Positions 16,100 through 64,000 of a stretch of DNA of 64,000 nucleotides are shown in pieces. Position 1 is the stretch's first letter. Every line of letters starts with the position of its first letter. The DNA comes from a virus. A program made the translations under genes and the position numbers. The notes beneath the pieces are model-generated. The model was not told the DNA's origin and made no database searches. It saw nothing but the letters and a program-made list of their open reading frames with translations. Location: positions 1-64,000 of IMG/VR virus record IMGVR_UViG_3300036828_000667. One strand, given 5' to 3'.

Positions 16100-16618
16100 T
16101 TAGATATGGACTGTCGCTTTTACAACACAAGTATGAGTAGTCGCATGAGTCGCAGGATCTTCATGATACTGAACAGAGACCATATTAAACCCACGCTCTT
16201 TCAAAGCAGCATTAATAGCGTGTTGTGTCTTTTGAAAATCAACCTGACTAAGTCCCGTACAGGTGATGATGAAACTATCTCCGGTTTTACCGTTGGGCAC
16301 GCCCACGGCATTCGCACAGCCACTAGCATGGAATGCACTGATAGCATCAGCCAATGTAGCCGCTTCTTTAATACCCTGGATACTTTCCCGAATAATCTTT
16401 TTCGCTGGAGTCAACAACATGGACATGCTTTCATCTCCTATCCATTTTGAGTCGTGTACCTTCCAAGGACCATACTTTTTATTTCCCGCAGCATTTACTT
16501 CTTTTTCAGCACGACTTCGCAACTGATGTTCAGTATCAGAATTTCTTACACTAGCTGTCTTATGAAGAGTCATTTTGTGCCCTTGTGGGGTCTTAAGAAC
16601 AATCCACAATTGGGCCAT
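16100..16618 (-). CDS. hypothetical protein
   Basis: GGAG RBS, 172 aa. Confidence 0.65.
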   Translation of the reverse strand: MAQLWIVLKTPQGHKMTLHKTASVRNSDTEHQLRSRAEKEVNAAGNKKYGPWKVHDSKWIGDESMSMLLTPAKKIIRESIQGIKEAATLADAISAFHASGCANAVGVPNGKTGDSFIITCTGLSQVDFQKTQHAINAALKERGFNMVSVQYHEDPATHATTHTCVVKATVHI

Positions 16619-16675
16619 GGTTACTCCAGAACAAGACGCTTGACATTGGGTCTAGGCATGGTACCGTGGCGATGT

Positions 16676-16760
16676 GCACACCGAACCGGAGCATACCTAC
16701 CCACGCCTTCCCGCGCCATTCCAAACCATACCCAACCTACCCTCACCACACCGCACCATA
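16676..16760 (+). ncRNA. pentamer element E1, 17 units
   Basis: (C/G)C-NNN x17; TTGACA 16640; ends CCACA CCGCA CCATA. Confidence 0.85.
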
Positions 16761-16777
16761 CTATTACCTAGTACATA

Positions 16778-17578
16778 CTACCCACTGTGAGGCAGGCTCA
16801 CCCCAACATTTGGAAGAACGGGCGAGACATCCGATGGACGCACCACACCAGCAGTCGCATTTGGCTGGACGTTCACGGGTGCGGTAACTGGCACTAAACC
16901 ACCAGCGTTCGGCCCTGTATAGTTGACTTGCTCGATATCAAGAATCGATACATTACTATAATCTTTTTCCTGTGCGACTCTCATAGCAATAGACTTGGCC
17001 TCTTCTGGAGAAGAAGCTCTAATCGATAGGTGCTCCGTTCGTGGCGTTTCTGTCTCCGGAGTCGAATACTGAATTTTCACGGCGAACGTATAGAGCCCTC
17101 CCGGAGCAGTGAGAGTAGGATCGTGACCTGCGAAGTCTTCACCAAACACAGCCACATGCACTGAACGCCTCATGGCATTTTCACTTATTTTCATGACTTG
17201 GGTTCCTGTCGTTACGATACAAGAATCACTGTAATGCGGTGACAGTTCCCAAGGAACATTAACACCGATATAGTTCAACGCTCTGGTGAGAATATCCCTA
17301 GGATTGTCTACACCGTATTGTTTAGCTAAAGTCCTAACCAAACTCCCTTGTGAGGTGTCATTGACCAAGGCCATGACATCCTCGACTGGCAAGTGATCTC
17401 CTCTTGCAATAGCATCAGTACTCGGATCACTAGGATCAGTATCAGGAGTACCAGGACGCTTAGACATCAGATGAATAGGGAGTGCATCTGAAAATGCGCA
17501 TATAAACTGGAAATCTCTTCGCGAGAAGTCATCTCCTAACATTCTTAATCTATCCCACACACGTAATGTCGTCACCAT
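16778..17578 (-). CDS. hypothetical protein (contains E1 match)
   Basis: 266 aa, GGAGA RBS. Confidence 0.75.
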   Translation of the reverse strand: MVTTLRVWDRLRMLGDDFSRRDFQFICAFSDALPIHLMSKRPGTPDTDPSDPSTDAIARGDHLPVEDVMALVNDTSQGSLVRTLAKQYGVDNPRDILTRALNYIGVNVPWELSPHYSDSCIVTTGTQVMKISENAMRRSVHVAVFGEDFAGHDPTLTAPGGLYTFAVKIQYSTPETETPRTEHLSIRASSPEEAKSIAMRVAQEKDYSNVSILDIEQVNYTGPNAGGLVPVTAPVNVQPNATAGVVRPSDVSPVLPNVGVSLPHSG

Positions 17579-17606
17579 GACGTTTTCTCCAAAAATGAGA
17601 CGTACA

Positions 17607-18134
17607 CTACTCTACCCAGTTTTTACCACTCCGAATATAAGAAATCATAACATGACTAACTCCAAATTCTGCTGCTAAACTCGTATTAATACCCCAATAG
17701 TGAGAACGAGACCTAATATCATCAACTTGTGATCGCGTAAGCTTTGAATTGCCGTTGCGTTGACCTTTCCCACTAGTTCCGTGTTCAATCTGGTCTTTCA
17801 CATTTTTTTCATGAGTATCCCATTTAATATTTTCAGGCCAGCGGTTATCAGAAGGATTTCCATTAAGATGACGACATTCTTGCCCAGGTGGACAAGGACC
17901 ATAAAACGCATTCAGGATAAGAGCATGAACTCTATATGTCTCCAACTTCCTTTCTTCGCCCTTCCACCGTCCAACTGTCATATACCCATCAGAGTTAGAT
18001 GTTAATTTTCTAAACTCAATCTCTTTTATAGTACGATTCTTAAACCTTCCTCCAGGAAGTACCCTAACACGACCACGATTTGAGACCTGATGGAACGGCC
18101 AACTCTCGATATCTTTCCAAATCTCTTCAGTCAC
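17607..18134 (-). CDS. NUMOD4-HNH homing endonuclease
   Basis: EIWKDI..QVSNRGRVR; RVH.LI..AF; CRHLNGNPSDN; GTG start after AGGAGG. Confidence 0.88.
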   Translation of the reverse strand: MTEEIWKDIESWPFHQVSNRGRVRVLPGGRFKNRTIKEIEFRKLTSNSDGYMTVGRWKGEERKLETYRVHALILNAFYGPCPPGQECRHLNGNPSDNRWPENIKWDTHEKNVKDQIEHGTSGKGQRNGNSKLTRSQVDDIRSRSHYWGINTSLAAEFGVSHVMISYIRSGKNWVE

Positions 18135-18281
18135 TGTGATCCCTCCTAGTTTTACAGTCGTAGTTTTACAAACAGAAAAATCGGCGGCTGGCGGGAGACC
18201 GCCTTCCTCCGTCAAATAACCGCCAATCCATGGAGATTTAGTCCAACGTACTCCTGTTGTACGATCGACGCAAGAGGGAAT

Positions 18282-20219: not shown

Positions 20220-20492
20220 TCATCCTGTAGGATGCTTAGAAGCATCTTCAGGTGTCTTTGCCTTATGGTGTTCTTCAGGTGCTTTTGCTTTATGGTCTTC
20301 AGGCTTCTTTGCCTTTACAGGCTCCTCGGGCGGGGGAGGCTCAACATGAACCGGGTAGACCGGCTGATCGTCAACGCCCTCGGGCTGATCGCCGAGCGTG
20401 TGGATCACGGGCCTAATCATCTCGTCCCGAGAATGACGATATTCTGGGAACCCACCATCAGCACCCACGATCTTTTCAACGTATTGAGCCAT
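20220..20492 (-). CDS. P/E/K-rich hypothetical protein (contains E2 match)
   Basis: AGGAGA RBS. Confidence 0.7.
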   Translation of the reverse strand: MAQYVEKIVGADGGFPEYRHSRDEMIRPVIHTLGDQPEGVDDQPVYPVHVEPPPPEEPVKAKKPEDHKAKAPEEHHKAKTPEDASKHPTG

Positions 20493-20546: not shown

Positions 20547-20611
20547 ACGGACCATTCCGATCCGAAGCCAGCCCCACCGTGCCTATCCCCTCCCCAGCGA
20601 ACCGAACCACA
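20547..20611 (+). ncRNA. pentamer element E2, 12-13 units
   Basis: TTGACA 20508; CC-NNN register; ends CCGAA CCACA. Confidence 0.82.
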
Positions 20612-34278: not shown

Positions 34279-34436
34279 AACCGCTCACCACACCTAACCC
34301 CAAGGGGAGGCTCTGGACGGGCTTTCCCGTGGCCCTGTGGGGGGTAGCTGGGGAGCCGGAAATCTGCACTGGCGGGCTTCTAAGCAGAGCCTGGACCCAC
34401 TTGCCATCCAATAGATCCATGGGGTAAGAACAATAT

Positions 34437-34511
34437 GCATACCGCCCCTCTCCAGGCCGCTGCACGGCATACCGAACCGCCCCTGCCCTGACCAAAGCAC
34501 ACCGCACCATA
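34437..34511 (+). ncRNA. pentamer element E3, 15 units
   Basis: TTGCCA 34401; ends GCACA CCGCA CCATA CTTT. Confidence 0.85.
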
Positions 34512-39269: not shown

Positions 39270-39315
39270 GACCTAACATCCCTCTTGACTTTCAGACTGA
39301 CCTATGCTCACATCA

Positions 39316-39380
39316 CCACTTCACCCCGAACCGACCCGAACCATGCCACCCCGATCTGCACCCGTCCGCTCCATACCACA
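39316..39380 (+). ncRNA. pentamer element E4, 13 units
   Basis: TTGACT 39285; ends CCATA CCACA CTTTTT. Confidence 0.82.
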
Positions 39381-40176: not shown

Positions 40177-40258
40177 GACCGTCTATCCCATCCGAACCAG
40201 TCCAATCCTATCCTATGCACACCGCACAGAATGACCTAAGAGAAATCTTAGGTCATTC
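40177..40258 (+). ncRNA. pentamer element E5 (8-10 units) with GAAA-loop hairpin
   Basis: TTGACT 40148; GCACA CCGCA; 13-bp stem 40229-40258. Confidence 0.85.
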
Positions 40259-40263
40259 GCTTT

Positions 40264-40476
40264 TCAATCAGTGTCATAACCATCTGCGCTATAGTAGTTA
40301 TTTTCGTGGTACGGACACTCTTCTCTCATGAGAGCTAAGCAACGGCGAATAGATGCACTGCTTGTCCCATAGGACTCAACCACGTGGTCGCACCTTGAAC
40401 AAGTAACCTTGACACTGGGAACTTCCCCGTGATCACCTTCCAATTCGATTTCATCTATGGTACATTTTACCTTCAT
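40264..40476 (-). CDS. small Cys-rich protein (contains E5 match)
   Basis: CSRC, RRCL..MREECP. Confidence 0.7.
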   Translation of the reverse strand: MKVKCTIDEIELEGDHGEVPSVKVTCSRCDHVVESYGTSSASIRRCLALMREECPYHENNYYSADGYDTD

Positions 40477-40682
40477 GGCGCATCGTCAGGCCAGTATTTG
40501 AACTGGTTCCTAGATTGCCAATTATATATAGGTTGCCAGATCCCAATCTTCGCTAGTAGCTTCAAATACAATGGAGCGGCAGCATGACAAGCAACTAGCA
40601 TCTGATCGTAATGATCGTTGTGAGCCTTGATCCGGTCAAGAAAGGGAGTCTCTCCCTTCGTATGTTCACCGATTGATCCCAT
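40473..40682 (-). CDS. hypothetical protein (contains E6 match)
   Basis: ATG 40682 after GGAGG. Confidence 0.65.
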   Translation of the reverse strand: MGSIGEHTKGETPFLDRIKAHNDHYDQMLVACHAAAPLYLKLLAKIGIWQPIYNWQSRNQFKYWPDDAP

Positions 40683-40729
40683 ATCCCCCTCCACTTGACT
40701 CACAAAGATTATTTGGCTACTATCCAAAC

Positions 40730-40811
40730 GCGAGCCAAACCGGTCCACTCCACGCCCCTCCTTCGCTTACCGATCCACACAGAATGGCCTGAGAGAAATC
40801 TTGGGCCATTC
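40730..40811 (+). ncRNA. pentamer element E6 (10 units) with GAAA-loop hairpin
   Basis: TTGACT 40695-N17-TACTAT; stem 40782-40811 with two G-U pairs. Confidence 0.85.
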
Positions 40812-40920
40812 GCTATTCCATTGCCTTCACGGTAAAGATTTCGTCAACCTGACCACCACACGTGCAAGGCCAGTATCTCATAATTTAGCATTTGCGTTCA
40901 CCACAAACCTTCGTCATTGT

Positions 40921-44223: not shown

Positions 44224-44309
44224 GTAGTAGGTTTTCCTGTTGTGCTAGTTTAACTGAGATAAGGGCGGTAGGTCCCCTCGATCCCTCCCCAGCCCAGCCC
44301 CTCCCGGCA

Positions 44310-45497: not shown

Positions 45498-45557
45498 TAT
45501 GGTGTGGTATGCTGCGGTGTGGTTCGAGGGGCCGCGGGCTGGTTTGGTTAGGGTTGC
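45498..45557 (-). ncRNA. pentamer element E8, 12 units
   Basis: NNN-GG/GC register on plus; tandem with E9. Confidence 0.8.
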
Positions 45558-45578
45558 AGAACACAGTATGAACTAAAG

Positions 45579-45633
45579 TATGGTGCGGTATGCTGAGGAT
45601 TGCGATGGTCTGCGCTGGGTCGCTGTGCTAGGC
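45579..45633 (-). ncRNA. pentamer element E9, 11 units
   Basis: TTGACT(-) 45663-45668 N17 TATGGC; ends GCATA CCGCA CCATA. Confidence 0.82.
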
Positions 45634-47188: not shown

Positions 47189-47268
47189 TATGGTGCGGTG
47201 TGCAGCGGTTAGGCATGGGATGGGCGGGCTGGCGACGGCGAGGCACGGGTTGCATTGGTGTGGGTTGG
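47189..47268 (-). ncRNA. pentamer element E10, 16 units
   Basis: follows hairpin 47281-47317; ends GCACA CCGCA CCATA CTTTT. Confidence 0.85.
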
Positions 47269-47325
47269 TAGGATAGAGGACAAAGGACCAGAAGATTAGA
47301 TATCCTCTGATCCTTTGAACAGATG

Positions 47326-47390
47326 TGCGGTTTGGTATGCTGTGGGCCGGCACGGCTGGGGGTGGCGCGGGAAGGCTTGGCATGGCTTGC
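47326..47390 (-). ncRNA. pentamer element E11, 13 units
   Basis: TTGACT(-) 47421-47426 N17 TAGTCT. Confidence 0.88.
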
Positions 47391-47433
47391 ACCAAAAAGA
47401 CTACTACCAAACTTACCGCTAGTCAACCACTAT

Positions 47434-47847
47434 TTACCTGATACGCTGCACTAAGCAACCTTCCGATTTTGCCTGCCACGTCCCACACCACTGGCCAGCT
47501 TCAACAGGTCGCAAGATCCACTTTCGTGAATATTCCCAGATCGGAACGACCTTTTTTTCCATGACCTTCTGGCCGTTCTCGTCTAAGACGAGTTTGTTCT
47601 TTTCACCCCGCTTAGACCGTGAGATTTCCTGTGTCCCGACTTGCGTGGCAAATTTCATTTTGACCGCGGACACAGCTGAACCCAAAGTTTTCATGGGATC
47701 GGGCATCTTCTCGGTCTTAGCTGCGAAGAAGCTCTGTCCGACGCCCAATTTATCAAGAGGATATTTGGCGACCCCATTACGGTTACCACGTTTCGACTTC
47801 GGCATTTCCACCGCGTCGATGATTTCAAACGTCACTTGCTCTTCCAT
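47434..47847 (-). CDS. putative DNA-binding phage protein (contains E10 and E11 matches)
   Basis: KYPLDKLGVGQSFF motif. Confidence 0.75.
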   Translation of the reverse strand: MEEQVTFEIIDAVEMPKSKRGNRNGVAKYPLDKLGVGQSFFAAKTEKMPDPMKTLGSAVSAVKMKFATQVGTQEISRSKRGEKNKLVLDENGQKVMEKKVVPIWEYSRKWILRPVEAGQWCGTWQAKSEGCLVQRIR

Positions 47848-49805: not shown

Positions 49806-49913
49806 ACCAGTATAACAATGGGAGGCTACAATGAAAAAAAGTGTAAGTGGGGCTGGTGACTTACCACCAGCCCCTTTGGACTACGCTGTCTCTTATTCTC
49901 AGGGACTAAATTG

Positions 49914-49978
49914 TGCGGTTTGGCCTGCAGCGGAGCGGATAGGCTAGGTTCGGATAGGCAAGGAAAGGCGTGGTATGA
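49914..49978 (-). ncRNA. pentamer element E12, 12-13 units
   Basis: TTGACA(-) 50011-50016; ends CCAAA CCGCA. Confidence 0.85.
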
Positions 49979-51397: not shown

Positions 51398-51871
51398 ATG
51401 ACTATTTACACTATCTACCATGTTCCTAATATAAAAGTAGGAGCAACCGATAATTTAAAAACTAGAATGGCTAGATACAAGTCTAGATACAAGGAGGTTG
51501 AGATAGAAATACTCTTGAAAATGAGATTCGAACAAGTACCAGAATATGCAAGATGGTATATAGTAGGAACTTATGAATGGATATTTGCTGATATGTATGG
51601 ATACCCTAGAGGTTTTCATTACTATATCAGCAGATATAGTAATAGAGTAAAACAAAGTCCATATAGCACTTTAGAACAAATTAAGTCTAATTACGGGAAA
51701 CAACATGCAAATGATTACTTTAATCAAATTACTGTAACAAACGAAACACTATGGAAATTCCTATCGTTGCTTTTAAATCAACAAAGTTACATAGAGAGAC
51801 TTGTCAAAGAGATATTCCCAAATTCTTCTCCTCAATCCTTTCCTCTGGCACTCTTTCTCTTCACCAGCTAG
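51398..51871 (+). CDS. GIY-YIG-like protein
   Basis: IY....KVGAT.NL..R...Y. Confidence 0.45.
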   Translation: MTIYTIYHVPNIKVGATDNLKTRMARYKSRYKEVEIEILLKMRFEQVPEYARWYIVGTYEWIFADMYGYPRGFHYYISRYSNRVKQSPYSTLEQIKSNYGKQHANDYFNQITVTNETLWKFLSLLLNQQSYIERLVKEIFPNSSPQSFPLALFLFTS

Positions 51872-52105
51872 TTAAATCACCAGTTAGTTAAGTCAGTAAA
51901 AGACGAGGGGAGTATGAGGGGAGTTTTTCAATAGTTTGTCAATTCTACTTAGGTATAGGTTTATATCACACTATGTTACAAACTGTAAGAATGGGATATA
52001 CTTTAGACACGACAAAAAGCCCCATTAGACTATGTCTAGGGGTTTATGGTCATTTGGGGGTTGTTTTTAGGATGTAAGGAGGTGCTGTTGTGGATAGCCT
52101 CTTGG

Positions 52106-52382: not shown

Positions 52383-52437
52383 TGCGGTATGGGATGCATG
52401 GGGCAGGTCCGGCAGGGTAAGCGTCGGGGTGGGGTGG
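52383..52437 (-). ncRNA. pentamer element E13, 11 units
   Basis: TTGACA(-) 52469-52474; ends CCATA CCGCA CAATTTT. Confidence 0.83.
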
Positions 52438-52711
52438 ACAAAGCTTCATTACTATCATTGCAATCCATTGTCAAGAAGTCTAAAATCAAGCCTCCCGTCC
52501 TCCCCTGGCTGGAGCATAGGATGAAAAAAGGCCCATATCGCAGAAGAACCCTTGTCAGAAAATACAGGTTTCATCCCTATGAGAATTTTGAGTCAGGTAA
52601 GGGATGGAACCTTCCCCATAACAGAAAAAGGGTAAAGAAACATCATGGTCCAGCACTAAATAAACTAGGTCAATTAAGACGTTTTTGGATTACTGTTACA
52701 AGAACATACAG

Positions 52712-56445: not shown

Positions 56446-56544
56446 AAGTCATCCTCTGTTTTTGAAATGACAGAGGATGACTTGTGCGGTTTGGTTAGGA
56501 ATGCAGTGGCTCGGCAGGGTTCGCTTCGGTTTGGTATGGTTCGA
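56446..56544 (-). ncRNA. pentamer element E14 (11-12 units) with 3' hairpin
   Basis: TTGACA(-) 56576-56581 N17 TACGTC; stem 56446-56483. Confidence 0.85.
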
Positions 56545-56565: not shown

Positions 56566-57183
56566 TTGACCGTCTTGTCAAATGGGTGCAAAATGTCCAA
56601 GAAGTTCTCAATATCAGTGGACCATAATGCATTAAGGCAATTTCCGTTTCTGGATCGACTCCAGAAACAACAATTCCCCATTTCAACCCTCAATGAAGTT
56701 ATGTACGTTCTTGAAAATAGACCTGAAGGATTCAAAATCGAGTTGGTTTATAGTGTATTGAAAGTGTCGTTAATTAACGTCAATAGAGACACCAATGACG
56801 ACTACTTGGGATTGCCGAAGATTGAAGGTCAGTTGAAAGACCTGTGTGATGTGATCAGAGAGACCACGTCATATGGAACACGTGGGGGAGTCGACCCAAG
56901 GACACAAATATATTATAGTAGGAAGTCGTCTATTCTACAGGGTAGTAACCTTAGTGATGATGCTCTGATAGCTCCTAATTATGTTTCTAATAGAGGTTTG
57001 AGAAAACGCCATCCTCTTGATCTTGTGTCCACAGAAGAGGTCGTTAAAAGAAGGGAACTTGCTAACCGACACTGGCAAGAACAGAAAAAAGAGCAACGAA
57101 GAAAACAACAGTCCAGTATCAACTCAAAAATCCGGAATGCTCAGGACTTTTTGACAAGAAGCAATTTTGACAAGAAGCAATAA
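56566..57183 (+). CDS. hypothetical protein (contains E15 match)
   Basis: start probably 56593. Confidence 0.7.
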   Translation: MTVLSNGCKMSKKFSISVDHNALRQFPFLDRLQKQQFPISTLNEVMYVLENRPEGFKIELVYSVLKVSLINVNRDTNDDYLGLPKIEGQLKDLCDVIRETTSYGTRGGVDPRTQIYYSRKSSILQGSNLSDDALIAPNYVSNRGLRKRHPLDLVSTEEVVKRRELANRHWQEQKKEQRRKQQSSINSKIRNAQDFLTRSNFDKKQ

Positions 57184-57201
57184 TAATGTTAACCTTCTTC
57201 G

Positions 57202-57299
57202 GCGAACCGGTCCAATCCGAACCGACCCTATCCCTACCGGACCCTTGCACAGCATACCGCACATCTACCCCTCAGGCTGTATTACACAGCCTGAGGGGT
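57202..57299 (+). ncRNA. pentamer element E15 (12 units) with 3' hairpin
   Basis: TTGACA 57167 N17 TAACCT; stem 57267-57299. Confidence 0.87.
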
Positions 57300-61648: not shown

Positions 61649-62176
61649 ATGGCAAAACACAATGAAGAAAATGATCTATGGTTCCTTAGCAAAATCGCAG
61701 ATGGAACCATTTCTGTATCCGAAGACGGAGAGGTCTTCAACAACAAGACAGGTAGATATATAGGCGCTCAACAAGGAGCAGGTTACCTTAAGATTTCTAT
61801 GGCAAAGAGAGTTGATGGAAAACTTGTTATTGTCCATATGCAAATCCATAGGTTAGTATGGCTACATTTCAAAGGACCTATTCCTCAGGGACTAGAAGTC
61901 AATCACAAAGATTTAAACAAATCGAACCCACGATTGTCAAATCTAGATTTACAAACACCCAAAGGGAATGCTGAACATGCCACCTTAAATGGTGTTGACC
62001 GACGCTCAAAAACAGGAGGCCATAAAAACGCTAATGCCAAATTTACACGTGAACAAGTCGAGATGCTACGGAGACAATTCAAATCGAAAGAAACCACAGT
62101 TAAAGAAATAATGATAAACTATAGTGTTTCTAAGCCAGTTGTGTATTGGATGCTGGAAGGAAGGACCTATAAATAG
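61649..62176 (+). CDS. HNH endonuclease
   Basis: IHRLVW..F.GPIP..EVNHKD.NK.N..L.NL. Confidence 0.88.
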   Translation: MAKHNEENDLWFLSKIADGTISVSEDGEVFNNKTGRYIGAQQGAGYLKISMAKRVDGKLVIVHMQIHRLVWLHFKGPIPQGLEVNHKDLNKSNPRLSNLDLQTPKGNAEHATLNGVDRRSKTGGHKNANAKFTREQVEMLRRQFKSKETTVKEIMINYSVSKPVVYWMLEGRTYK

Positions 62177-62201: not shown

Positions 62202-62531
62202 ATGGTAGAATTTGGAGCGTTCATTCGCAAAGAACGAGAGGCCAGAGATATTAGCTTACGAAAGATGGCCAAGAAGATTGGTGTAAGTGCAACCTATCTA
62301 TCACAAGTGGAACTTGATAGGTTCCCACCACCAACTGAGGATAGGGTAAAGGCTATTGCCAAGATCATTGACTGTAATCCTGACTACCTACTGGCCAAAG
62401 CTGGACGGATCTCGACCGACATTTCCGACATCATTAAACGTCGTCCGATCGAGCTTTCGATGCTTATTCGAGCCGCCAAGTACTTGAGTAACGATGACAT
62501 TGCCCAATTGATTAATGCGGCGTCAGCGTAG
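62202..62531 (+). CDS. XRE-family HTH regulator
   Basis: SLRKMAKKIGVSATYLSQVE. Confidence 0.88.
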   Translation: MVEFGAFIRKEREARDISLRKMAKKIGVSATYLSQVELDRFPPPTEDRVKAIAKIIDCNPDYLLAKAGRISTDISDIIKRRPIELSMLIRAAKYLSNDDIAQLINAASA

Positions 62532-62625
62532 GAGCCTCACTGGTAAGTCTTTTAGGCCTGGAGGCCCTACCACCTGGCCTGTCCATAATTCGCGTCAGTG
62601 GGCTTCCAACAAAGAGGAGAGGGTA

Positions 62626-62811
62626 ATGCGTTGCGATCGGTGTCAGGGAACAGGCTGGGATCGGGCAGGAGTACACCCTGTACTTGGGCCGCTCTTCGAT
62701 TGCAACCATCCGTGTACTGAATGCGGCGGGTCAGGCATCGCCCACTGTTGCGACGGCATCTGCGAACAGCCTTCAATTGACAAGTCTATAGATGACAAGC
62801 TAACATCTTGA
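62626..62811 (+). CDS. small DnaJ-like zinc-finger protein
   Basis: CDRCQGTG, CTECGGSG. Confidence 0.6.
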   Translation: MRCDRCQGTGWDRAGVHPVLGPLFDCNHPCTECGGSGIAHCCDGICEQPSIDKSIDDKLTS

Positions 62812-62812
62812 C

Positions 62813-62877
62813 GCCTACCGTACCACTCCGACGCCAACCACACCGAGCCGGTCCATACCTTTCCAAACCAAACCACA
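62813..62877 (+). ncRNA. pentamer element E16, 13 units
   Basis: TTGACA 62777 N18 TAACAT; ends CCAAA CCACA CTTTTTT. Confidence 0.85.
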
Positions 62878-63410: not shown

Positions 63411-63514
63411 TCGAACCGCTGCCTTGCTTGCCAAACCGGGCCAAGCCGGCGCGGACCAAACCTCCGCACACCGCACAATGGGAGTAGTCAAATGGCTTGC
63501 AGACTACTCCCATT
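63411..63514 (+). ncRNA. pentamer element E17 (13 units) with 3' hairpin
   Basis: TTGACC 63369; GCACA CCGCA; stem 63477-63514. Confidence 0.88.
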
Positions 63515-63533: not shown

Positions 63534-64000
63534 ATGCTAATTTCAGTCACGATCTCCGGAATCCGACCTTTAATCCTCGACGCGTTTTCCGAGGAAGCGT
63601 TGCTTAAGGGGAAGGGAGGAAAGAGTACAGCCCAGCCCAAGGAACTGAGTCCCTTGGATCAAGCCAAGCGTAGGTTATACTATAATGGAGATGGTACCGA
63701 CGTTCCTATATTCCCAGCAGACAACCTACTCAGCTGTATCATCGCTGCCGGGCGGTTTATCAAGGTCGGGAAAAGGCAACTAACTACTCGCGACAGTACG
63801 ACAGTAACTTCATTCCTACAGATATCAGAACTATATCTTCCCATTAGGTCGATAGATGGATGGCGAGTCGACTCCAGGAGCATCGTCAACCCGTCTACAA
63901 AAGGTCGTCACATATGCTACCGTCCCATCTTTGACGACTGGGAGTTAGATTTCACGCTCGACATCGATACGAATGAAGCGAGCGACAGCTTGGTTAGACA
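63534..64000 (+). CDS. RAMP/Cas7-like protein, truncated by the window end (not in ORF track)
   Basis: AGGAG RBS; MLISVTISGIRPLIL..., PIFPADNLLSCI, D.R.IV...GRH..YRPIFDDWELDFTL.ID; no stop to 64000. Confidence 0.7.
   Translation, partial: MLISVTISGIRPLILDAFSEEALLKGKGGKSTAQPKELSPLDQAKRRLYYNGDGTDVPIFPADNLLSCIIAAGRFIKVGKRQLTTRDSTTVTSFLQISELYLPIRSIDGWRVDSRSIVNPSTKGRHICYRPIFDDWELDFTLDIDTNEASDSLVR

What the first reader, a model, noticed from the sequence alone, without database searches (positions are those of the whole stretch)
16676..17098. E1 decodes to GIYTFAIKIQYST versus adjacent GLYTFAVKIQYST
11/13 aa with 17060-17098 of the convergent gene. The two differences are conservative (I/L, I/V), as expected if the guide records an orthologue under protein-level selection rather than drifting.
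Basis: partly seen in the sequence, partly recalled or inferred. Interest (0 to 1): 0.78.

Follow-up and report, generated by a model that had tools for sequence, protein, structure and literature searches.

The report
Phage VIPR guide RNA gene, C-rich variant
The "decodable" stretch is the gene for a guide RNA of a recently described phage system (VIPR) that reads only the first two bases of each codon of a target gene; here it fits rival phages' versions of the neighbouring gene better than the phage's own, and it belongs to an unusual sub-group whose guides carry CC where the published ones carry GG.

Summary
Window 16678-16757 (+) is a period-5 array (NNN+CC, 16 units) whose triplets read TEGIYTFAIKIQYSTA. 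The convergent gene 16778-17578 (-) reads PGGLYTFAVKIQYSTP at 17057-17104, far above shuffled controls.

It is not a peptide code. It is a VIPR guide (vrRNA) gene, a system described in 2026 preprints. A Cas7-like Vipr protein binds a pentamer-repeat RNA, and two bases per unit pair with target DNA while the codon wobble base is skipped. The phage encodes a Vipr homologue at 63534-64175 and about 28 such guides.

Under the published scoring, E1 matches the resident gene at 24/28 informative bases. It matches the orthologues of two related phages at 27/28, and one homologue (protein only) is compatible with 28/28. Only codon positions 1-2 are read, so Ile (ATA) equals Met (ATG).

What appears new:
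- This Vipr sub-clade has CC where published guides have GG, and a changed G-loop (V-M instead of D-F/Y/W).
- Promoters, terminators and tail homology indicate that the C-rich strand is the guide.
- Guides are scattered as mini-genes beside the resident copy of their near-target.
- The unread third base keeps codon-class information.

Other first-reader notes of this scan had already flagged the system on this same genome.

The parts
16640..16667 (+). Sigma-70-like promoter of guide E1: -35 TTGACA (16640-16645), 16-nt spacer, -10 TACCGT (16662-16667). Transcription would start at about the first pentamer.
   Evidence: Sequence. TTGAC[A/T] lies 28-35 nt upstream of 11 of 25 arrays in this orientation (about 0.2 expected by chance) and of none in the opposite orientation.
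16673..16757 (+). Guide E1 repeat tract: 17 pentamers (TGTgc, then 16 x NNNcc). The first two bases of each unit are informative: AC GA GG AT TA AC TT GC AT AA AT CA TA TC (AC GC).
16748..16764 (+). Conserved end of the guide (ACACC GCACC ATACTAT). It is shared by many units of this genome and is homologous, in the same orientation, to the GG-ATACTTT tail of GG-type relatives.
17058..17107 (-). Near-target of E1 in the resident gene (PGGLYTFAVKIQYS...): 24/28 informative bases. The mismatches include the two internal codons Leu (CT vs AT) and Val (GT vs AT).
16778..17578 (-). 266-aa gene of unknown function, convergent with E1. The matched segment lies in its most conserved block (Y163, F165, K168 and Q170 are invariant in 17 homologues).
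63534..64000 (+). vipr gene (213 aa, P0019; it runs to genome position 64175, beyond the window). This is the Cas7/RAMP-like protein expected to bind the guides.
63413..63472 (+). Guide upstream of vipr. Its informative bases match codons 20-31 of vipr itself (EALLKGKGGKST) at 20/24. All the mismatches are Leu or Ser codon-box switches.
20549..20608 (+). Guide with its own promoter. Its near-target is at 20344-20378 (-) in the adjacent 90-aa gene (19/24).
40184..40223 (+). Guide with promoter and a strong terminator hairpin (40229-40258, + strand). Its near-target is at 40289-40311 (-), 14/16.
40727..40776 (+). Guide with a scanned promoter (40695-40723, + strand) and a hairpin. It has a partial near-target at 40635-40661 (-).
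47329..47393 (-). Guide with a promoter, followed by a second guide at 47192-47271 (-). Its near-target is at 47627-47664 (-), 22/26, with ten consecutive perfect units.
57199..57258 (+). Guide with promoter and a 14-bp terminator (57267-57299, + strand). It has a partial near-target at 56788-56820 (+) in the upstream gene.
34434..34508 (+). One of the further guide-like arrays in the window that have no significant own-genome match. The others are 39313-39377 (+), 44271-44305 (+), 45531-45611 (-), 49902-49976 (-), 52386-52440 (-), 56488-56542 (-) and 62810-62874 (+).

Best explanation
E1 is the gene of a VIPR guide RNA (vrRNA).

A sigma-70-type promoter (16640-16667) starts transcription at a tract of 16-17 pentamers (16673-16757) that ends in a conserved tail. 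By analogy with the solved SUSP1 system, the phage's Vipr protein (213 aa, Cas7/RAMP fold, 63534-64175) polymerises along the RNA with one protomer per pentamer. It buries the constant part of each unit and presents two variable bases. These dinucleotides pair with target DNA while one target base is skipped between them. When the skip falls on the wobble position, the guide reads codon positions 1-2 of a coding segment. This is why deleting the CC spacers makes the array look like a synonymous, conservatively substituted copy of a gene.

E1 specifies T/[D,E]/G/[I,M]/Y/T/F/A/[I,M]/K/[I,M]/Q/Y/S, the most conserved block of the neighbouring 266-aa protein family. It fits alleles of related phages almost perfectly. 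It fits the resident allele less well, with two internal mismatched codons and two at the edge.

The most likely function is silencing of the orthologous gene of co-infecting relatives while sparing the phage's own copy.

Shown here: the array anatomy, the Vipr homology and fold, the NN/1-skip register, and the higher score on non-self than on self for E1.

Inferred from the literature: expression of the guide, filament formation and transcriptional repression.

Specific to this sub-clade, and inferred from four sequence arguments: the guide is the C-rich strand, with units NN + nCC instead of GGY + NN.
For: - Period-5 anatomy and decoding.
- Codon positions 1 and 2 agree in 72/79 and 78/79 columns, position 3 in 19/79, with Ser, Arg and Leu codon-box switches.
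- An antisense, out-of-phase guide (68198-68287) still puts its third base on wobble positions.
- P0019 matches PDB 36pp 'SUSP1 Vipr protein' at E=4.7e-5. hhalign against the SUSP2 Vipr gives 98.5% probability, E=2.9e-15.
- The AF2 model has pLDDT 85, and Foldseek top hits are Csm3/Cas7 at probability 1.0.
- The published rule and biology come from bioRxiv 10.64898/2026.04.26.720920.720927 and 10.64898/2026.10.15.759431.
- E1 NN score: resident 24/28, L121 27/28, L122 27/28, shuffled maximum 19-21. P0011 is compatible with 28/28.
- Third bases match foreign alleles in only 3/14 and 2/14 units.
- Strand: TTGAC[AT] lies 28-35 nt upstream in 11/25 arrays versus 0 on the other strand. Terminators sit on the C-rich strand. 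The tail is homologous in the same orientation. The G-loop correlation is 2099 GG versus 19 CC units for D-[FYW] loci, and 0 GG versus 134 CC units for V-M loci.
- Natural DNA.
Against: - No RNA data exist, so expression and the transcribed strand are inferred.
- The resident gene still scores 0.86, above the 0.8 identity that the authors used to call candidate targets. Self-binding cannot be excluded, and no mismatch-tolerance data were available to me.
- For the two vipr-directed guides, the resident vipr is the best match among the DNA and proteins sampled. 'Non-self better than self' is therefore shown only for E1.
- The perfect-match allele (P0011) is known only as protein.
- No accessory (vap) gene was recognised next to vipr.
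- The G-rich strand would give the canonical GG motif.
Confidence: 0.7

Rival explanations
1. Self-regulation. The dispersed guides are cis-linked repressors of the phage's own neighbouring genes, for example for temporal shut-off, with feedback on vipr by the two guides that flank it. Imperfect matches would set the strength of repression.
For: Each matching guide lies within about 70-450 nt of its near-target. Self scores are 0.78-0.88, around the 0.8 cut-off used in the literature for calling targets. For the vipr-directed guides the resident gene is the best match found.
Against: E1 fits foreign alleles better (0.96 versus 0.86). Mismatches to resident genes are enriched in synonymous Leu/Ser/Arg box switches (10 of 14 six-fold residues, counted by hand), which looks like escape. 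There is a published precedent that self-match scores are lower than non-self scores. The roughly ten chained guides behind vipr have no own-genome match at all.
Confidence: 0.2
2. Canonical orientation. The functional guide is the G-rich strand (GGN+NN units, the published 'NNNGG' type), transcribed antisense to vipr. The promoters and terminators on the C-rich strand would serve something else.
For: All characterised VIPR guides carry GG. The discovery paper lists NNNGG repeats among alternative vrRNAs. In GG view the third base is 60% pyrimidine.
Against: The promoter sits at a fixed distance only on the C-rich strand, and terminators are on that strand. The conserved ATACTTT tail follows the tract on the vipr strand both here and in GG-type cousins, so the tract is not inverted. 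The residues aligned with SUSP1's guanine-contacting D177/W178 are V/M in exactly the loci that carry CC units. G·U pairs in two tail hairpins are valid only on the C-rich strand.
Confidence: 0.17
3. The arrays are decoded into peptides by a 5-nt reading step or by removal of CC, so the resemblance to the neighbouring protein reflects translation.
For: The triplets are amino-acid-preserving, including six-fold codon switches, and stop triplets are depleted (6 versus 14 expected).
Against: Guide 68198-68287 matches its gene only in antisense, with the codons split by the CC spacers. There are no tRNA genes in the window. There are no start or stop signals in register. A known nucleic-acid mechanism explains the register.
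Confidence: 0.01
4. Chance resemblance, or an artefact inserted into the record.
For: None beyond the oddity of the pattern.
Against: Scores are far above shuffled controls. The arrays are present in the contigs of two independent public runs. The same array type flanks vipr homologues in independent contigs L127, L128 and L202.
Confidence: 0.01

Closest known systems
VIPR systems, type II of Escherichia phage SUSP1/SUSP2 (bioRxiv 10.64898/2026.04.26.720920; structures 10.64898/2026.04.26.720927)
   Same: - A small Cas7-like Vipr protein (hhalign 98.5%).
- Guides made of 9-20 tandem pentamers with two informative bases per unit.
- The 1-nt skip is aligned with codon wobble positions.
- There is one guide upstream and a chain of guides downstream of vipr.
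- The guides have a conserved 3' end.
- Targets are conserved coding segments on either strand.
   Different: - The constant dinucleotide is CC on the vipr strand instead of GG.
- The third constant position is unconstrained (60% purine) instead of a strict pyrimidine.
- The G-loop reads V-M where SUSP1 has D177-W178.
- No pseudoknot tail is recognised; there is a short ATACTTT or GCACA motif with or without a terminator hairpin.
- No vap gene is adjacent.
- About 17 guides are scattered over more than 50 kb as separate promoter-guide-terminator units.
GG-type Vipr cousins at about 40% identity (IMG/VR loci L129-L201, e.g. L153, L147; also Mycobacterium phage Quico)
   Same: They belong to the same protein family (hhalign 100%, E=1e-49). 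The locus layout is the same, and the tail motif (ATACTTT / ATATTTTATTGATT) follows the tract in the same orientation.
   Different: They carry GGC/GGT+NN units and a D-F or D-Y G-loop. Their arrays are long and chained next to vipr. No guide decoded to a neighbouring gene (0 of 331 arrays).
Solo vrRNAs and vipr-targeting vrRNAs of SUSP1-family phages (bioRxiv 10.64898/2026.10.15.759431)
   Same: Guides lie away from a vipr gene. Some guides are aimed at early codons and at the end of vipr. Self-match scores are lower than non-self scores. Targeting is wobble-aligned on invariant codon positions.
   Different: There the solo guides sit at the deleted vipr locus or on satellites. Here the phage keeps vipr, and the guides sit beside the resident homologue of each target.
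Non-canonical VIPR-like arrays found by a genomic language model (bioRxiv 10.64898/2026.10.21.760802)
   Same: These are period-5 arrays with a constant motif other than GGY, found next to Vipr-like folds.
   Different: The examples named there are GAC/NN, CAC/NN, WGT/NN and TGH/NN. A CC unit is not named in the text I could read, so I cannot tell whether it is among the 21 clusters.
Class 1 CRISPR Cas7 backbone (Csm3/Cmr4/Cas7)
   Same: The fold is the same (Foldseek probability 1.0), and the guide-target duplex is periodically interrupted by a thumb.
   Different: The period is 5 with 2 paired bases, instead of 6 with 5 paired bases. There is no repeat-spacer array, no other cas genes and no adaptation module.

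Membership tests
VIPR | A Vipr protein: a small RAMP/Cas7-like protein with RRM core, thumb and glycine-rich loop, homologous to described Viprs | tested here: met
   phmmer against PDB 36pp 'SUSP1 Vipr protein' gives E=4.7e-5. hhalign of the family profile against the SUSP2 Vipr gives 98.5%, E=2.9e-15, over 166 columns. The AF2 model has pLDDT 85, and its top Foldseek hits are Csm3/Cas7 at probability 1.0. The thumb Arg (SUSP1 R138) aligns with the invariant R130.
VIPR | Guides are tandem pentanucleotide repeats (about 9-16 units) with a constant part and two hypervariable bases | tested here: met
   E1 has 16-17 units, and the genome has about 28 arrays of 6-20 units. Positions 4 and 5 are 86% and 97% C, and positions 1-3 are variable.
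VIPR | The constant motif is GGY on the guide strand | tested here: not met
   On the strand that carries the promoters, terminators, vipr and the conserved tail, the units are NNN+CC. Read on the other strand they are GGN+NN, with only about 60% pyrimidine at the third position. The literature allows 'related consensus' motifs.
VIPR | Noncontiguous code: the NN of each unit pairs with the target, one target base is skipped, and the skip is usually on the codon wobble position | tested here: met
   Positions 1 and 2 agree in 72/79 and 78/79 columns versus 19/79 for position 3. E1 scores 27/28 on two foreign alleles while its third bases agree in 2-3 of 14 units. An antisense guide keeps the same register.
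VIPR | An invariable 3' tail after the repeat tract | tested here: inconclusive
   Units end in a conserved ACACC/GCACC-ATACTTT or GCACA motif, often followed by a hairpin and a T-run. This tail is homologous to that of GG-type cousins. No pseudoknot was demonstrated.
VIPR | Guides flank the vipr gene in long intergenic regions | tested here: met
   There is one guide upstream (63413-63472) and about ten chained guides downstream (genome 64185-65340).
VIPR | An accessory gene (vap) next to vipr | tested here: inconclusive
   No recognisable neighbour was found. The nearest DNA-binding candidate is an HTH_3 protein at 62202-62531, and HNH endonucleases lie at 61649-62176 and genome 66253-66807.
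VIPR | Guides are expressed, co-purify with Vipr and repress transcription of matching DNA | not testable with these tools
   No RNA run holds the region. This needs sRNA-seq, pull-down and reporter assays.
CRISPR-Cas | An array of identical direct repeats separated by spacers, plus cas genes (Cas1/Cas2 or effector modules) | tested here: not met
   No such array was found, and PADLOC and NCBIfam gave no cas hits for P0019. The only shared feature is the Cas7-like fold.
Diversity-generating retroelement (TR/VR pair) | A template repeat of the same length as the variable repeat, differing at adenines, with a reverse transcriptase nearby | tested here: not met
   The array is 5/3 the length of the gene segment, the differences lie at third codon positions and not at adenines, and no RT was seen.

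The most novel reading that the evidence does not exclude
This phage represents a Vipr sub-clade whose protein reads C-rich guides (units NN+nCC). The switch is coupled to replacement of the residues aligned with SUSP1's guanine-contacting G-loop pair D-[F/Y/W] by V-M.

Its guides are deployed as about 17 separate mini-genes, each physically linked to a resident allele that carries escape mismatches. Several of those mismatches are synonymous Leu/Ser/Arg codon-box switches. Such linked 'weapon plus immune allele' modules would favour their own inheritance in crosses between related phages.

In addition, the unread third base of each unit keeps the purine/pyrimidine class that preserves the amino acid (p=6e-8), while four-fold boxes show no positive association. 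This suggests that guides are born by copying a rival's coding DNA three bases at a time, which would be a first hint at how VIPR guides are acquired.
Probability: 0.4. Interest if true: 0.78.

Novelty: new variant of a known kind. Interest (0 to 1): 0.58.

Why it matters
VIPR was described only in 2026 and is proposed as the ancestor of CRISPR effector backbones. All characterised guides use GGY.

A natural sub-clade with CC in place of GG, together with a matching change in the residues aligned to the guanine-contacting G-loop positions, would show that the constant part of the code is itself evolvable. It would also supply a second, possibly orthogonal guide scaffold for engineering.

The genome also offers two things that the SUSP1 model does not:
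- A large set of guides sits next to the phage's own nearly matching genes. This is a direct view of how a phage aims at relatives without silencing itself, partly through synonymous recoding.
- A free third base appears to preserve the codon of the source sequence. This bears on the open question of where new guides come from.

For the finding as given, the practical message is that the 'peptide' is an illusion created by a two-of-three-base nucleic acid code.

Tried and rejected
- **Planted or artefactual sequence.** Rejected: two public runs hold the region.
- **Translation in 5-nt steps.** Rejected: there is an antisense, out-of-phase guide and the window has no tRNA genes.
- **Known RNA families.** Rfam gave no family at gathering threshold in the window.
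- **Similar phage records.** Megablast of 16100-17600 against phage records gave no match.
- **Exact E1 string in IMG/VR.** No match; the window's own record is left out of that collection.
- **Periodic 2-4 nt deletions at 51868-51893 in run X2.** This is an alignment effect in an AT-rich intergenic stretch, not an array.
- **Arrays in other viruses.** 0 of 331 decode to a neighbouring peptide. They are ordinary GGY/NN VIPR arrays seen from the other strand.
- **Relatives of the 266-aa gene at 50-62% identity (L120-L124).** None has an array next to the gene.
- **RNA evidence.** No RNA holder was listed for the region.
- **Prokaryotic genomes.** The scan found no relative of this Vipr sub-clade, so the host is unknown.
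- **Hairpin free energies of the two strands.** Not decisive overall.
- **Foreign vipr alleles.** None fits guides 63413 or 64185 better than the resident gene, at DNA or protein level.
- **Self-scan of guides in L127, L128 and L202.** No significant near-targets within those 10-12 kb loci.
- **Wobble (G·U) pairing of the third base.** Checking the pairs by hand, it fails on either strand: TAT-versus-TAC and TAC-versus-TAT pairs both occur.
- **Pfam, PADLOC and NCBIfam for P0019.** Nothing significant.
- **PHROGs.** It gives only families of unknown function for P0019 and for the near-target genes.

Full report
**1. The observation**

Window 16678-16757 (+) lies in the gap between two minus-strand ORFs. 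It parses as sixteen pentamers of three variable bases plus CC, with one GC. The triplets read TEGIYTFAIKIQYSTA. The convergent gene 16778-17578 (-) reads PGGLYTFAVKIQYSTP at 17057-17104, so the claimed 11/13 match is exact.

The match is not chance. The ungapped BLOSUM62 score against the six-frame translation of the whole genome is 63. Shuffled triplet orders give a mean of 32 and a maximum of 41.

**2. It is a family, and it is natural DNA**

The window is the first 64 kb of a 113,838-bp IMG/VR virus record. That genome holds about 25-28 such arrays on both strands. Nine of them decode in sense to a peptide found in a coding segment 70-450 nt away, for example 64190-64284 against 64029-64085 with a score of 91 versus a null maximum of 46. 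A tenth array matches only in antisense.

In columns where the amino acids agree, codon positions 1 and 2 are identical in 72/79 and 78/79 cases, but position 3 in only 19/79. Ser, Arg and Leu switch codon boxes.

Because this looked almost designed, I checked public reads. Two soil-metagenome runs from different studies hold every sampled 31-mer of 16560-16900. Their contigs cover seven other arrays with no difference. These runs may be the source samples, but the assemblies are independent of the record.

**3. What rules out a peptide code**

Array 68198-68287 (+) matches the minus-strand gene next to it (...QSLYDTPSNVY...) only as reverse complement, and shifted by one base. The CC spacers therefore split the codons. 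Even so, the base just before CC again falls on a wobble position. The relation is between nucleic acids, with two of every three target bases carrying the information. The window has no tRNA genes and no Rfam family.

**4. Identification**

Earlier first-reader notes on this genome proposed that the 213-aa ORF at 63534-64175 is RAMP/Cas7-like. I tested this.

- The protein (P0019) has no Pfam, PADLOC or NCBIfam hit.
- phmmer finds PDB 36pp, 'SUSP1 Vipr protein', at E=4.7e-5.
- That name led to three 2026 preprints on VIPR, Viral Interference Programmable Repeat.
- In VIPR, Vipr protomers coat a guide made of GGY+NN pentamers. The NN bases pair with DNA while one target base is skipped. Natural targets are coding sequences with the skip on the wobble position, on either strand.
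- A profile of 38 homologues of P0019 aligns with the SUSP2 Vipr at 98.5% probability, E=2.9e-15, over its full length.
- An AlphaFold model (pLDDT 85) hits Csm3, Cas7 and Cmr4 with probability 1.0.

The locus layout also fits. One guide lies upstream of vipr and about ten are chained downstream. E1 is thus a VIPR guide gene seen from its C-rich strand. 'Deleting the CC' reproduces codons because the code ignores the wobble base.

**5.

The score is the identity at the informative positions, using the pattern NN?NN?.... For the 14 variable units of E1 the results are:

| Sequence | Score | Segment |
|---|---|---|
| Resident gene | 24/28 (0.86) | PGGLYTFAVKIQYS |
| L121, related phage | 27/28 (0.96) | ADGMYTFAIKIQYS |
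| L122, related phage | 27/28 (0.96) | TDGMYTFAVKIQYS |
| Shuffled guides | at most 19-21 | - |

Homologue P0011, known only as protein, reads TDGMYTFAIKIQYS and is compatible with 28/28. Under this code Ile (ATA) and Met (ATG) are the same 'AT'.

The segment lies in the most conserved block of the protein family. The third bases of E1 agree with the two foreign alleles in only 3/14 and 2/14 units, so the skip rule holds.

The guide therefore does record an orthologous allele. It fits non-self better than self, as published for SUSP1-family solo guides.

**6. What differs from the published systems**

(a) *Strand and constant motif.*

- In SUSP2 and in Mycobacterium phage Quico the arrays read GGY+NN on the vipr strand. 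Here the vipr strand reads NNN+CC.
- TTGAC[A/T] lies 28-35 nt upstream of 11 of 25 arrays in the C-rich orientation, where about 0.2 is expected by chance. It lies upstream of none in the other orientation. A TAnnnT-like hexamer follows about 17 nt after it.
- Strong terminators follow arrays 40184 and 57204 on the C-rich strand.
- I compared 79 IMG/VR loci with vipr homologues. Those at 37-43% identity carry GGY units on the vipr strand. The closest ones (L127 and L128 at 58%, and L202) carry CC units, as here.
- Repeat type tracks the G-loop. Loci with D-F, D-Y or D-W hold 2099 GG and 19 CC units. The V-M loci hold 0 GG and 134 CC units.
- In SUSP1 the aligned residues D177 and W178 contact the two guanines.
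- The tail is homologous in the same orientation: cousins end GG-ATACTTT or GG-ATATTTTATTGATT, and this phage ends CC-ATACTTTATCAATT. The tract is therefore not inverted; the constant dinucleotide has changed.
- I put about 80% on the C-rich strand being the guide. There is no RNA evidence.
- A fourth preprint reports non-canonical VIPR units (GAC, CAC, WGT, TGH) but names no CC unit. The discovery paper mentions 'NNNGG' repeats, which could be this type read on the other strand.

(b) *Dispersal.*

- About 17 guides in the window are separate promoter-guide-(hairpin) units spread over 16.6-63.5 kb.
- Six guides have their best own-genome match within 600 nt and above every shuffle, with self scores of 0.78-0.88. 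A seventh ties its null maximum.
- Relatives at 50-62% identity have no array, and only 20-40 nt separate the orthologous gene from the next gene. Here that gap is about 350 nt.

(c) *Self-avoidance.*

- The two guides that flank vipr match vipr itself: codons 20-31 at 20/24, and the G-loop region at 34/40.
- No foreign vipr, as DNA or protein, fits them better.
- Their mismatches to the resident gene are mostly synonymous Leu, Ser and Arg box switches. Over all pairs, 10 of 14 six-fold residues sit in the other box (my hand count).
- This fits guides aimed at very close relatives with a recoded resident copy. Self-regulation is not excluded.

(d) *The third base.*

- Although it is not matched to targets, the third base keeps the amino-acid-preserving purine/pyrimidine class in split codon boxes. 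The table is 18/2/1/19, Fisher p=6e-8, using only the pairs found by the third-base-blind scan.
- Four-fold boxes show no positive association.
- Stop triplets are depleted, 6 observed against 14 expected.
- G·U-tolerant pairing does not explain this on either strand.
- The simplest reading is that guides derive from real coding sequence, three bases at a time. This is only a hint. No acquisition mechanism is described in the papers I read.

**7. Verdict**

The finding is real and is explained by a known, very recent system, so the 'peptide decoding' itself is not new biology.

This genome nevertheless looks like a new variant of VIPR. It has CC units with a V-M G-loop, guides dispersed next to nearly matching resident genes, and an informative but unread third base. 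These points deserve experimental follow-up.

Limits of this analysis:
- There are no expression data.
- The host is unknown.
- The target genes have no known function.
- No data were available on how many mismatches the complex tolerates.

Noticed in passing
L002:2259-2458 (genome about 64950-65149, just beyond the window): A 66-aa ORF with its own AAGGAG ribosome-binding site is a C-terminal fragment of a second Vipr (…HRPTFEDWQLDF…GLGSMRPERHGPYGQF…). It lies inside the chain of guides downstream of vipr. It could be a remnant of a second VIPR locus, or a truncated protein with a role of its own.
   Followed up: partly
window 40637-40919: One contig of run X1 (depth 13 versus 32 for the main form) joins 40637 to 40919. 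The skipped span holds guide 40727-40776 with its promoter and hairpin, and starts inside its near-target (40635-40661). This may be a strain in which the guide-plus-allele module is absent or replaced. It rests on a single contig, and the letters between the two sides are unknown.
   Followed up: no
window 17607-18215 (-), 61649-62176 (+); genome 66253-66807 (-): Three free-standing HNH endonuclease genes (HNH_3 with NUMOD4 or AP2 domains). One lies directly beside the gene that E1 nearly matches, and two lie near the vipr locus. A phage with many homing-type nucleases and many guides against relatives suggests intense competition among related phages.
   Followed up: no
window 16425-16640: Between E1's promoter and the conserved start of the next gene (MSMLLTPAKK, about 16424) lie about 215 nt that are absent in relatives. 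On the minus strand they read as a 64-codon in-frame extension of ORF 16100-16618. It is unclear whether this is a real N-terminal extension, a small separate gene, or part of an inserted guide cassette.
   Followed up: no
L026:1900-2850, L153:4069-4997, L126:2560-2830 and many loci: A simple pattern of nine CC dinucleotides at period 5 retrieves more than 117 IMG/VR contigs. Where I looked, these are VIPR arrays of the GGC/NN type, up to about 1 kb long. Such a pattern is a cheap detector of VIPR loci in viral metagenomes.
   Followed up: partly
window 62202-62531 (+): An HTH_3 (Cro/C1-type) DNA-binding protein lies 1 kb upstream of vipr, followed by a small CXXC-rich ORF (62515-62811) and a guide (62810-62874). 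It is a possible counterpart of the DNA-binding accessory (vap) genes described for some VIPR types.
   Followed up: no
four-fold codon boxes of guide/near-target pairs: Where the guide's third base is a pyrimidine in a four-fold box, the resident wobble base was never a pyrimidine (0 of 9; p=0.03). In split boxes the third base is the transition partner more often than the identical base (28 versus 13). This is a weak sign that resident genes also avoid matching the guide at the skipped base. It remains unexplained.
   Followed up: partly
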